Shown here one piece after another: positions 22,266 through 23,075 of a DNA stretch of 32,000 bases. The stretch spans positions 24,173 to 56,172 of the forward strand of contig DAOVER010000023.1 in NCBI GenBank assembly GCA_030668875.1, written 5' to 3'. Made by a program: the position numbers and the translations under genes. The stretch's first letter is position 1; each line of letters starts with the position of its first letter. Under the pieces are notes generated by a model. The model ran no database searches and was not told the origin of the DNA. It saw only the letters and a list, made by a program, of their open reading frames with translations. The DNA is from Candidatus Heimdallarchaeota archaeon (GTDB lineage Archaea > Asgardarchaeota > Heimdallarchaeia > Heimdallarchaeales > Heimdallarchaeaceae).

Positions 22266-23075
22266 GTGTCAATAGATGATTATTTAGATACTCTGCTTTC
22301 TGGCAGTTCTGATCCATCTAGTAAAGCGATAAAGAAATTGACAAAACTTTTAGAAAGTTTTGGGGCCATAATGGTCCAATCCACAGAGAGGATGGAGGAT
22401 TACATTAACACACTAGACGCGCGCATTTCCGTAATTGAGAGAAATATGGTTGTGCCTTCTTCAAGTCCTGTTGTAGGTACATCATCGTCTAGTCCAGCAC
22501 CTGCAAGAGCGTCTACTCCTGCAGCTTCTGGAGCACCTAATCTTTCAGGAGCACCTAATCTTTCAGGAGCACCAAATCTTAGTAGTGCCCCTTCTTCAGG
22601 AGGATCTCCTGCACCAGCGCCTAGTGGTGGCGGAGGTGGAGGTATATCAAATGCAGATTTAATGAAAGTAGCGGCAGGCTTAACAAAAACTCCTGAACAA
22701 CAGTCAAAAGAAATGCTTGATGCATCAACATTCAGTCCGTCTGGAGTAAGTGTTTCAGCTATTCAAGATGTTAAAGCAGGATTAACTAAAGTAGACCAAG
22801 ATGAACATAGAAGAGAAAGAGCTGCAGCATCTGGTGGATCAGATTCAATGCCCGCTTCTATGGCACTAAACATGGAAGTCAAGGATGCCCTGGCAAAGAG
22901 AAAATCGCGCTCTAAATCAGATGAAGATAGTGATGATGAAGATGATTTTGCTCCAACTCAAACTGCTCCTGCTGCACCTAAGCGTTCAACTAAACAGATG
23001 AAAGAAGCTCTACAAGGAGAATTAAGAAGCGCCTTCAGTAGTTTACTTGAAAGTGATACACAAGAAGAAGAGTAA
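22266..23075 (+). CDS. Putative WAVE/WASH-like actin regulator: BRK1-like coiled coil, low-complexity linker, 2x WH2-like, C-like helix, acidic stretch, terminal helix (269 aa)
   Basis: GTG start (MSIDDYLDTLL). The CDS itself is well supported (own TATA box and terminator); the functional call is inferred from motifs listed under findings. Confidence 0.65.
   Translation: MSIDDYLDTLLSGSSDPSSKAIKKLTKLLESFGAIMVQSTERMEDYINTLDARISVIERNMVVPSSSPVVGTSSSSPAPARASTPAASGAPNLSGAPNLSGAPNLSSAPSSGGSPAPAPSGGGGGGISNADLMKVAAGLTKTPEQQSKEMLDASTFSPSGVSVSAIQDVKAGLTKVDQDEHRRERAAASGGSDSMPASMALNMEVKDALAKRKSRSKSDEDSDDEDDFAPTQTAPAAPKRSTKQMKEALQGELRSAFSSLLESDTQEEE
22530..22583 (+). repeat. 3x 18-bp tandem repeat encoding (GAPNLS)3
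   Basis: ggagcacctaatctttca twice exactly, then ggagcaccaaatcttagt. Confidence 0.95.

What the first reader, a model, noticed from the sequence alone, without database searches (positions are those of the whole stretch)
22860..23075. C/A-like region lacks the Arp2/3-binding Trp and has an extra terminal helix
Seen: MALNMEVKDALAKRKSRSKSDEDSDDEDDF, a short linker, then KQMKEALQGELRSAFSSLLE. Known: WASP/WAVE C regions are amphipathic helices ending in Arg/Lys followed by an acidic tail with a conserved Trp; the Ena/VASP F-actin-binding segment has a similar 'MEEMNAMLARRRK' pattern followed by an oligomerisation helix. Inference: Phe rather than Trp plus an added helix suggests a pre-Arp2/3 or VASP-like elongation role. 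The last helix could instead be a MIT-binding (MIM-like) or autoinhibitory element.
Basis: partly seen in the sequence, partly recalled or inferred. Interest (0 to 1): 0.6.

Follow-up and report, generated by a model that had tools for sequence, protein, structure and literature searches.

The report
Archaeal VCA-like tail without tryptophan
The last 72 residues of a small protein found only in Heimdall-group Asgard archaea are laid out like the business end of eukaryotic actin-assembly factors (helix, basic patch, acidic run, aromatic residue) plus an extra, almost invariant final helix, but no formal sequence test ties them to those families, so this is a promising, unproven candidate for a missing archaeal actin regulator.

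Summary
Observation confirmed. Window 22860-23075 encodes the C-terminal 71 residues plus stop of a 270-287-aa gene (22212/22257/22266-23075, + strand). The family is nearly confined to Heimdallarchaeaceae. The tail holds a predicted helix with an invariant E-V-K...K-R core, an acidic run ending in Phe (47 of 51 orthologs; no Trp anywhere in the family), a Pro-rich linker, and a terminal helix. That helix is the best-conserved part of the protein, while its synonymous sites vary freely.

Interpretation partly supported. Only the composite helix-basic-acidic order matches WAVE C+A above shuffled controls (p about 0.004), and a loose pattern for it hits 1 of 3,591 ORFs in this genome. Pfam WH2, Myo1_CA and VASP_tetra, PDB searches, an exhaustive profile search, hhalign and genome-wide HMM ranking all fail.

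The terminal helix resembles neither the VASP tetramerisation domain nor this genome's own ESCRT-III MIM1 tails. A sister lineage carries its motif four times in one protein, which argues for a repeatable ligand-binding module. The Phe is lost in two lineages. A full Arp2/3 complex was not found (ARPC4-like present, ARPC2 not detected; other subunits not searched).

Best reading, about 40%: the last two sites of a four-site, Arp2/3-independent actin-binding array on an oligomerising coil. The scan has noted this gene before, here and in other genomes.

The parts
22257..23075 (+). Whole gene, probable true extent. The mechanical ORF starts at ATG 22212; homologues start at TTG 22257 or GTG 22266.
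   Evidence: A TATA-like tttatatc lies at 22233-22240, and the stop at 23073-23075 is followed by a T-rich stretch.
22320..22448 (+). N-terminal long helix (residues 37-79), the presumed oligomerising coil. It lies outside the finding but is needed for the mechanism.
   Evidence: AF2 helix with pLDDT 83-87. Pfam CCDC53 PF10152 matches this region in 8 of 51 members, and in two sequences (P0054 and the L026 ORF, genus g5) it is just over the curated cut-off.
22449..22646 (+). Pro/Ala/Ser-rich disordered linker with 2-4 APNLS repeats.
   Evidence: pLDDT below 50.
22647..22697 (+). Short helix module M1 (ends LTKT here, LQKA in the family consensus).
22743..22799 (+). Short helix module M2 (ends LTKV; LKKV in genus g5).
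22854..22916 (+). C-like / FAB-like helix M3 (residues 215-235) with invariant E222, V223, K224, K229 and R230 and a basic cluster.
22917..22949 (+). Acidic run ending in Phe246. Family-wide the region is 12-20 residues long with net charge -3 to -8.
   Evidence: Phe is present in 47 of 51; it is absent in g5 and f4 and replaced by Tyr in f2.
22950..22985 (+). Pro-rich linker with near-invariant P248, A252, P253 and P256 (a PxxPx[K/R] pattern).
22986..23057 (+). Terminal helix M4 (residues 259-282), the most conserved element of the protein.
   Evidence: Its motif is repeated in P0066/L031.
23058..23075 (+). Short acidic tail and stop codon.

Best explanation
The segment is the C-terminal third of a Heimdallarchaeaceae-specific, mostly disordered protein. 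That protein is built as an N-terminal oligomerising coil, a Pro/Ala linker, and four short helical recognition modules (M1 to M4). The 'C-like' helix (M3) and the terminal helix (M4) are the last two modules. They are separated by an acidic spacer that usually ends in Phe and by a Pro-rich linker.

The most likely function is direct, Arp2/3-independent binding of actin subunits or filaments by several modules per chain and several chains per oligomer. This would gather or hold actin for nucleation, elongation or bundling, in the manner of Ena/VASP EVH2 or tandem-WH2 nucleators. M3 with its Lys/Arg cluster would act like the VASP F-actin-binding site or the WASP C helix. The acidic run would tune or mask that basic site. 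M4 would be a further high-specificity binding helix for the same conserved partner, not an oligomerisation, MIM or autoinhibitory element.

Shown: the anatomy, its conservation, its purifying selection, its rarity in this proteome, and the repeatability of the M4 motif. Inferred: that the partner is actin, and everything about activity.
For: The architecture and helices come from the alignment and AF2 models. M4 is invariant on all faces while its synonymous sites vary, as expected for a helix gripped by a very conserved partner. The best internal similarity in the C-terminal half is M3 against M4, and the next pairs link M1-M2, M2-M4 and M1-M4 in register, although this is borderline (20.9 against a null 95th percentile of 21.3). 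In family f4 (G054) the position of M3 is occupied by a third copy of the M1/M2-type repeat. In family f2 (P0066, L031) the M4-type motif occurs four times in 452 aa, against a background of 2.4e-5 per residue, and it replaces M2. The modules therefore look interchangeable and repeatable. Collinear similarity to WAVE V-C-A (p 0.008 or less) and of M3 to the VASP FAB (p 0.01) exceeds shuffled controls. The composite C+acidic+aromatic pattern is unique among 3,591 ORFs. The nearest named ESM-Atlas clusters are WH2/WHAMM fragments, at lead level only (0.77-0.79). The genome has two actins plus a divergent paralogue, but ARPC2 was not detected. The papers searched describe gelsolins and profilins as the main Asgard actin regulators and name no filament polymerase or nucleation-promoting factor.
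Against: No family-level test links the protein to any actin-binding family. Pfam WH2, VASP_tetra and Myo1_CA fall below threshold or are absent. PDB sequence searches gave nothing. An exhaustive profile search of 1.84 billion representatives returned only the family itself. hhalign against WAVE1 gave E 0.37. HMMs of WAVE VCA or Ena/VASP GAB-FAB rank this ORF only 230th-525th of 13,806. Taken singly, the helices match the WH2 core, the C core and this clade's MIM1 equally poorly (p 0.23-0.85). The positive tests were targeted after the resemblance had been seen. The internal-repeat signal is not significant. Actin binding is untested.
Confidence: 0.4

Rival explanations
1. A true nucleation-promoting CA module. 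The C-like helix and the acidic-Phe motif would dock on an actin-related protein (the Zn-ribbon-bearing divergent actin paralogue, possibly with the ARPC4-like protein) and prime a nucleus. This would be a precursor of WASP-family activation of Arp2/3, with Phe in place of Trp.
For: The C+A order matches WAVE C+A at p 0.004. The whole-protein order coil, Pro-rich, V, V, C, A is that of WAVE/WASH. The N-terminal coil of two genus-g5 sequences (P0054 and the L026 ORF) passes the Pfam CCDC53 cut-off. An ARPC4-like gene and a third actin-family gene are present. Full-length orthologues of that paralogue occur only in g1, g2 and f2, lineages whose family members keep an aromatic after the acidic run. 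The complete g5 genomes and f4 lack both.
Against: There is no Trp in any member. The aromatic is lost in g5 and f4, although the rest of the tail is kept. The acidic run is not at the C-terminus. ARPC2 was not found. ARPC4-like genes are common in families f3, f5, f14 and f27, where this family is absent. The paralogue was not detected in g4 or in about 7 of 24 g1 genomes that keep the Phe, although only three candidates per genome were scored. Its closest solved relatives are actin and Arp1, not Arp2 or Arp3.
Confidence: 0.12
2. A non-actin scaffold. The short helices would be docking motifs for another machine, such as MIT-domain/ESCRT proteins, small GTPase modules, or the conserved neighbouring beta-CASP protein, and the actin-regulator look would be convergent low-complexity patterning.
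For: Every formal actin-family test failed. A gapless scan with this clade's own MIM1 core picks exactly the four helices as its four best windows and scores M1 and M2 higher than the WAVE WH2 core does. The gene order aldolase, this gene, beta-CASP is kept in all five genera. The linker before M4 carries an invariant PxxPx[K/R] pattern.
Against: The MIM1 matches are not significant (p 0.25-0.75). M4 ends in an acidic tail where MIM1 ends in Lys/Arg. The gene is followed by a T-rich stretch, and the neighbour has its own upstream AT-rich region. No partner is indicated by any test.
Confidence: 0.25
3. The terminal helix is an intramolecular or oligomerisation element. It would either fold back on the N-terminal coil (autoinhibition) or form a VASP-like tetramerisation bundle.
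For: The two most conserved parts of the protein are the N-terminal helix and the terminal helix. The position at the C-terminus matches the VASP layout. The helix is moderately amphipathic.
Against: There is no similarity to the VASP tetramerisation domain (p 0.29; no PF08776 hit). The helix is only about 22-26 residues long. The AF2 fragment gives two independent helices with pTM 0.31, and the full-length model gives pTM 0.24. The motif occurs four times along one chain in the f2 lineage, which fits a ligand-binding repeat better than a unique latch. The polar face is invariant too.
Confidence: 0.1

Closest known systems
WASP-family VCA region (WAVE/SCAR, WASH, WASP/N-WASP)
   Same: The N-to-C order is the same: coil, Pro-rich linker, one or two short LKKV-type helices, a helix ending in a Lys/Arg pair, an acidic run, then an aromatic residue. 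The alignment to real WAVE1 V-C-A is collinear and exceeds shuffled controls.
   Different: There is no Trp anywhere. Phe is not universal in the family. The acidic run lies 41 residues from the C-terminus and is followed by a more conserved helix. There is no Pfam WH2 hit and no HMM or hhalign similarity. No complete Arp2/3 partner was found: ARPC4-like present, ARPC2 not detected, other subunits not searched.
Ena/VASP EVH2 module (GAB, FAB, tetramerisation domain)
   Same: A Pro-rich region is followed by an LKKV-type helix, then a helix with a basic cluster that resembles the FAB (p 0.01), then a C-terminal helix. The protein is oligomeric by design.
   Different: The oligomerising coil is N-terminal. 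There is no EVH1 domain. The terminal helix is unrelated to the VASP tetramerisation domain (p 0.29; no PF08776 hit). An acidic run follows the FAB-like helix. The whole-module alignment is not significant (p 0.15).
Tandem-WH2 nucleators (Spire, Cobl, VopL/VopF, TARP)
   Same: Several short helical sites lie in series on a flexible chain and are multiplied by oligomerisation. The number of repeats varies between lineages: three LKKV/LKSV-type repeats in G054, an extra repeat in g5, and four M4-type repeats in P0066.
   Different: No repeat passes the WH2 model. The repeats are of at least two sequence types. Actin binding has not been shown.
MIM1 tails of ESCRT-III
   Same: Short helices with an acidic start and, for M1 to M3, a Leu followed by basic residues. 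They are the top four windows in a MIM1 scan.
   Different: The scores are at chance level. The terminal helix ends acidic instead of basic. The motifs are internal and repeated, not a single C-terminal tail.

Membership tests
WASP-family VCA | Recognisable WH2 (V) domain | tested here: not met
   Pfam PF02205 gave no hit at E up to 10 in 51 members, in isolated modules or in a six-frame scan of the genome.
WASP-family VCA | C helix with a basic pair directly followed by an acidic region, collinear with V | tested here: inconclusive
   Targeted profile alignment to WAVE1: z 3.2-4.2, p 0.008 or less. Gapless C+A scan: p 0.004. A loose pattern hits 1 of 3,591 ORFs. However, WAVE VCA and CA HMMs rank the ORF 230th and 525th of 13,806, and hhalign gave E 0.37.
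WASP-family VCA | Conserved Trp in the acidic region near the C-terminus | tested here: not met
   No Trp in 14,576 family residues. Phe is present in 47 of 51, is lost in g5 and f4, and is Tyr in f2. Forty-one residues follow it.
WASP-family VCA | Arp2/3 complex present as target | tested here: not met
   An ARPC4-like gene is present (34 bits) and ARPC2 was not found. The third actin-family gene is closest to actin and Arp1. The genome is 92% complete. ARPC1, ARPC3 and ARPC5 were not searched.
WASP-family VCA | Stimulates Arp2/3-dependent nucleation | not testable with these tools
   Needs biochemistry.
Ena/VASP EVH2 | C-terminal tetramerisation domain (PF08776) | tested here: not met
   No Pfam hit in 51 members. 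Profile comparison of the terminal helix with the tetramerisation domain of 16 Ena/VASP/EVL proteins gave p 0.29.
Ena/VASP EVH2 | GAB and FAB motifs in order | tested here: inconclusive
   The FAB-like match alone gave z 3.2, p 0.01. The whole GAB-to-end alignment gave p 0.15. The FAB HMM ranks the ORF 387th, and the GAB-FAB HMM does not list it.
Ena/VASP | N-terminal EVH1/WH1 domain | tested here: not met
   No Pfam domain of any kind was found in P0001. The N-terminus is a single long helix.
Myosin-I CA domain (PF22773) | Match to the curated CA model | tested here: not met
   3 of 51 members matched, best E 0.27, 11.8 bits against a cut-off of 27.5.
ESCRT-III MIM1 | Acidic start, Leu repeats and a terminal L-[K/R]-K-K at the C-terminal end | tested here: not met
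   The genome's own ESCRT-III tails show the classic motif. The terminal helix scores 10.0 (p 0.75) and M3 scores 10.2 (p 0.73). The tail here ends acidic.
CCDC53/WASHC3 (PF10152), N-terminal coil only | Match over the curated cut-off | tested here: inconclusive
   8 of 51 members matched. P0054 scores 26.9 bits and the L026 ORF 25.4 bits against a cut-off of 24.6. The window's own protein and a six-frame genome scan give nothing. This region lies outside the finding.

The most novel reading that the evidence does not exclude
The helix, acidic run and Phe module is an ancestral-type nucleation-promoting CA. It would engage a primitive actin-related template (the Zn-ribbon actin paralogue, possibly with the ARPC4-like protein), while M1, M2 and M4 deliver actin subunits. 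Heimdallarchaeaceae would then hold a working forerunner of the WASP-Arp2/3 system.
Probability: 0.1. Interest if true: 0.95.

Novelty: new variant of a known kind. Interest (0 to 1): 0.6.

Why it matters
In the papers searched here, Asgard archaea are described as regulating their actin mainly with profilins and gelsolins, and no filament nucleator, elongator or nucleation-promoting factor is named. This family is the nearest thing to a VCA or EVH2 layout seen in the closest archaeal relatives of eukaryotes.

If its tail binds actin, or an actin-related protein, that would put a date on short-helix actin-assembly modules before eukaryogenesis. It would also give a minimal system, about 270 aa, for studying them. 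The specific points raised here are all directly testable with a few constructs: Phe instead of Trp, partial loss of the aromatic, and an extra invariant helix that behaves as a repeatable module.

If the tail does not bind actin, the family is a clear example of convergent motif patterning, and a warning against reading VCA-like strings as function.

Tried and rejected
Searches that found no family-level link:
- Pfam on the whole protein, on 51 members, on isolated modules and on divergent members gave no WH2, VASP_tetra or WASP-related hit.
- PDB sequence searches with the family profile and with two fragments gave nothing relevant.
- An exhaustive profile search of 1.84 billion representatives returned 12 hits, all from this family.
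- hhalign of the family against 14 WAVE1 proteins gave E 0.37, with an irrelevant alignment.
- HMMs built from WAVE VCA, WAVE CA and Ena/VASP GAB-FAB or FAB, run against all 13,806 ORFs of the genome, did not rank the gene high.

Structure:
- AF2 of the full protein and of the 79-aa tail gave no confident tertiary packing, so I ran no fold search on these models.

Internal repeats:
- The column-shuffle test was borderline only.

Readings considered and rejected:
- The MIM reading of the terminal helix was tested against this clade's own ESCRT-III tails and rejected.
- ARPC4 co-occurrence is not specific.
- Co-occurrence of the aromatic with the divergent actin paralogue is suggestive across lineages. 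It is not robust within genus g1, and only three candidates per genome were scored.
- CK2-type Ser sites in the acidic run are not conserved, so I dropped that idea.

I re-ran it reading the files instead.

Full report
**What is there.** The finding's coordinates, 22860-23075, lie at the 3' end of a + strand ORF, 22212-23075 (287 codons). The quoted peptides are present exactly as written, as residues 217-287 followed by a TAA stop. Homologues begin at the positions of TTG 22257 or GTG 22266, and a TATA-like element sits at 22233-22240. The real product is therefore probably 270-272 aa. I use P0001 numbering throughout. The window has about 33% G+C, and named relatives are Heimdallarchaeota/Heimdallarchaeaceae MAGs.

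**The family.**
- A word-indexed search found 56 relatives, all unannotated and all from Heimdall-group assemblies.
- An exhaustive profile search of 1.84 billion representatives found 12, all from the same family and none eukaryotic.
- Among 399 genomes of the phylum, the family is in 25 of 29 genomes of the window's own family (f1). Divergent forms occur in f2 (1/1) and f4 (1/12), and only the N-terminal coil matches in f13.
- The gene order aldolase, this gene, beta-CASP protein is kept in all five genera of f1.

**Anatomy.** AlphaFold2 with the 51-sequence alignment gives:
- a long N-terminal helix (37-79);
- a disordered Pro/Ala linker with APNLS repeats;
- short helices at 147-158 (M1) and 181-190 (M2, followed by a helix at 196-208);
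- a helix at 215-236 (M3, the 'C-like' helix);
- a disordered stretch;
- a helix at 259-284 (M4).

The full-length model has pTM 0.24. A separate run on the last 79 residues gives the same two helices, with pLDDT up to 90 for M4 but pTM 0.31. That means no confident hairpin.

**Conservation.**
- M4 is the best-conserved element of the whole protein: mean column entropy 0.12 bits, with 18 invariant positions that include its polar face.
- M3 has entropy 0.51, with E222, V223, K224, K229 and R230 invariant.
- The acidic region is conserved in composition only: 12-20 residues, net charge -3 to -8, entropy 1.34.
- Phe246 is present in 47 of 51 members and is followed by a near-invariant Pro.
- The linker carries near-invariant P248, A252, P253 and P256.
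- There is no Trp in 14,576 family residues.
- Under the invariant M4 residues the synonymous positions vary freely, so the constraint is on the protein and not on an overlapping DNA or RNA signal.

**More divergent members.**
- Genus g2 keeps the helix, a short acidic run and Phe. Genus g4 keeps the Phe with a weak acidic run, followed by a poly-Gln stretch.
- Genus g5, which includes two closed genomes, keeps M3 and M4 but has no aromatic.
- The f4 member has a third LKSV-type repeat where M3 sits, an acidic run without an aromatic, and an M4-like end.
- The f2 long form (P0066, L031) has an M3 with an Arg-rich cluster, an acidic run, and a Tyr shortly after. It also has four copies of the M4-type motif ([LVIM][KR]x[AR]F[ST]) in 452 aa. 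The background rate is 2.4e-5 per residue.
- The aromatic is therefore only partly conserved, Trp is never used, and the M4 motif is a repeatable module.

**Is the C/A likeness real?** At the family level, no.
- Pfam finds no WH2, no VASP_tetra, and only sub-threshold Myo1_CA matches (3 of 51, E 0.27 or worse).
- PDB searches gave nothing.

The WAVE1 query matched database proteins at 100% identity.
- hhalign of the family against WAVE1 gave E 0.37.
- HMMs of WAVE VCA, WAVE CA and VASP FAB rank this ORF 230th, 525th and 387th of 13,806 ORFs. The Ena/VASP GAB-FAB HMM does not list it at all.

At the motif level, yes, but modestly.
- Profile Smith-Waterman alignment against WAVE V-C-A is collinear (LTKV on LRKV, M3 on C, acidic on acidic) with z 3.2-4.2 and p 0.008 or less against column shuffles.
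- A 28-column gapless C+A scan picks residue 222 at p 0.004. The WH2 core and the C core alone do not exceed chance.
- M3 matches the VASP FAB at p 0.01, but the whole EVH2 alignment does not (p 0.15).
- A loose C+acidic+aromatic pattern is met by one ORF of 3,591, namely this one.
- ESM-Atlas neighbours of residues 140-287 and 209-287 are short WH2/WHAMM fragments at 0.77-0.79, which is lead level only.
- These positive tests were chosen after the resemblance had been seen, so they carry less weight than their p-values suggest.

**The terminal helix.**
- It shows no similarity to the VASP tetramerisation domain (p 0.29) or to any part of VCA (p 0.23).
- This genome's two ESCRT-III proteins end in a textbook MIM1, and 17 distinct tails from the same archaeal family give a clean profile. 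M4 scores at chance against that profile (p 0.75) and ends acidic where MIM1 ends basic.
- The MIM1 scan does pick the four helices as its four best windows and scores M1 and M2 above the WAVE WH2 core. A docking-motif reading of the array as a whole therefore cannot be dismissed.
- The best internal match of M4 is M3 (20.9 against a null 95th percentile of 21.3).
- Taken with the four-fold repeat in f2, this favours M4 being one more copy of a ligand-binding helix over a unique latch or bundle.
- No other ORF in the genome carries M3+A or M4.

**Arp2/3 context.**
- The genome (92% complete) has an ARPC4-like gene, two actins and a third, divergent actin-family gene with a Zn-ribbon-like N-terminus. 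ARPC2 was not found, and Pfam profilin was not detected.
- ARPC4-like genes are near-universal in f1, but equally so in f3, f5, f14 and f27, where this family is absent. Co-occurrence is therefore not specific.
- Full-length orthologues of the divergent paralogue occur only in g1, g2 and f2, and not in the closed g5 genomes or in f4. This parallels the presence of the aromatic. The match fails in g4 and in about 7 of 24 g1 genomes, and only three candidates per genome were scored.
- The paralogue's closest solved relatives are actin and Arp1.

**Reading.**
- Most likely (about 0.4): M3 and M4 are the last two sites of a multivalent, oligomeric, Arp2/3-independent actin-binding array of the Ena/VASP or tandem-WH2 kind.
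- A true CA acting on an Arp-like template is possible (about 0.12).
- A non-actin docking scaffold is a serious rival (about 0.25).
- An autoinhibitory or oligomerising terminal helix is least favoured (about 0.1).

**Prior notes.** The papers searched name no such factor in Asgard archaea. This scan has already noted the same gene in this window and its orthologues in other genomes, with similar cautious verdicts.

Noticed in passing
Outside the window: G000 contig C18, about 17962-20739 (+); L035:63-2840: A 925-aa ORF. Its first 290 residues or so are 9-10 tandem copies of a roughly 25-aa unit of the form DLxxxIxxxxxxL[K/T]K[V/L/A], found with an HMM of module M2 (E 0.0016 over 13,806 ORFs). 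The C-terminal part shows weak TPR matches. Pfam WH2 does not hit it.
   Followed up: partly
Outside the window: G000 contig C29, 32197-33666 (-); L004:1492-2964: A third actin-family gene of 490 aa, scoring 198 bits against the actin HMM where the two actins score about 440. It has a Cys-rich Zn-ribbon-like N-terminal extension and a divergent first half. Full-length orthologues occur only in genera g1 and g2 and in family f2. Its closest solved relatives are actin and Arp1.
   Followed up: partly
window 21113-22138 and 23162-25309: The upstream threonine-aldolase-like gene and the downstream 715-aa beta-CASP/metallo-beta-lactamase protein, which has a roughly 300-aa N-terminal extension, flank the gene in all five genera of the family (59-76% and 31-52% identity outside the closest relatives). 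This may be a functional link or simple synteny.
   Followed up: partly
window 22449-22646: The Pro/Ala linker holds a short repeated motif, APNLS (three copies here from near-identical 18-nt DNA repeats, 2-4 in relatives), with invariant Pro-Asn. It looks like a repeated docking motif and not a classic polyproline profilin site.
   Followed up: no
window 22950-22985: The linker just before the terminal helix has near-invariant P248, A252, P253 and P256 followed by Lys/Arg. This PxxPx[K/R] pattern resembles class II SH3-type ligands.
   Followed up: no
window 22212-22266: The mechanical ORF start (ATG 22212) is probably upstream of the true start. Most homologues begin at TTG 22257 or GTG 22266. 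The conserved 'peptide' before it coincides with a TATA-like promoter element at 22233-22240, which suggests a leaderless or short-leader mRNA.
   Followed up: partly
P0066; L031 (G010 contig C180, 440-aa ORF): The sister-lineage long form (440-452 aa) keeps the coil, one M1-type helix and an Arg-rich C-like helix plus acidic run. It adds a Lys-rich extension with further copies of the terminal-helix motif, the last again at the extreme C-terminus.
   Followed up: partly
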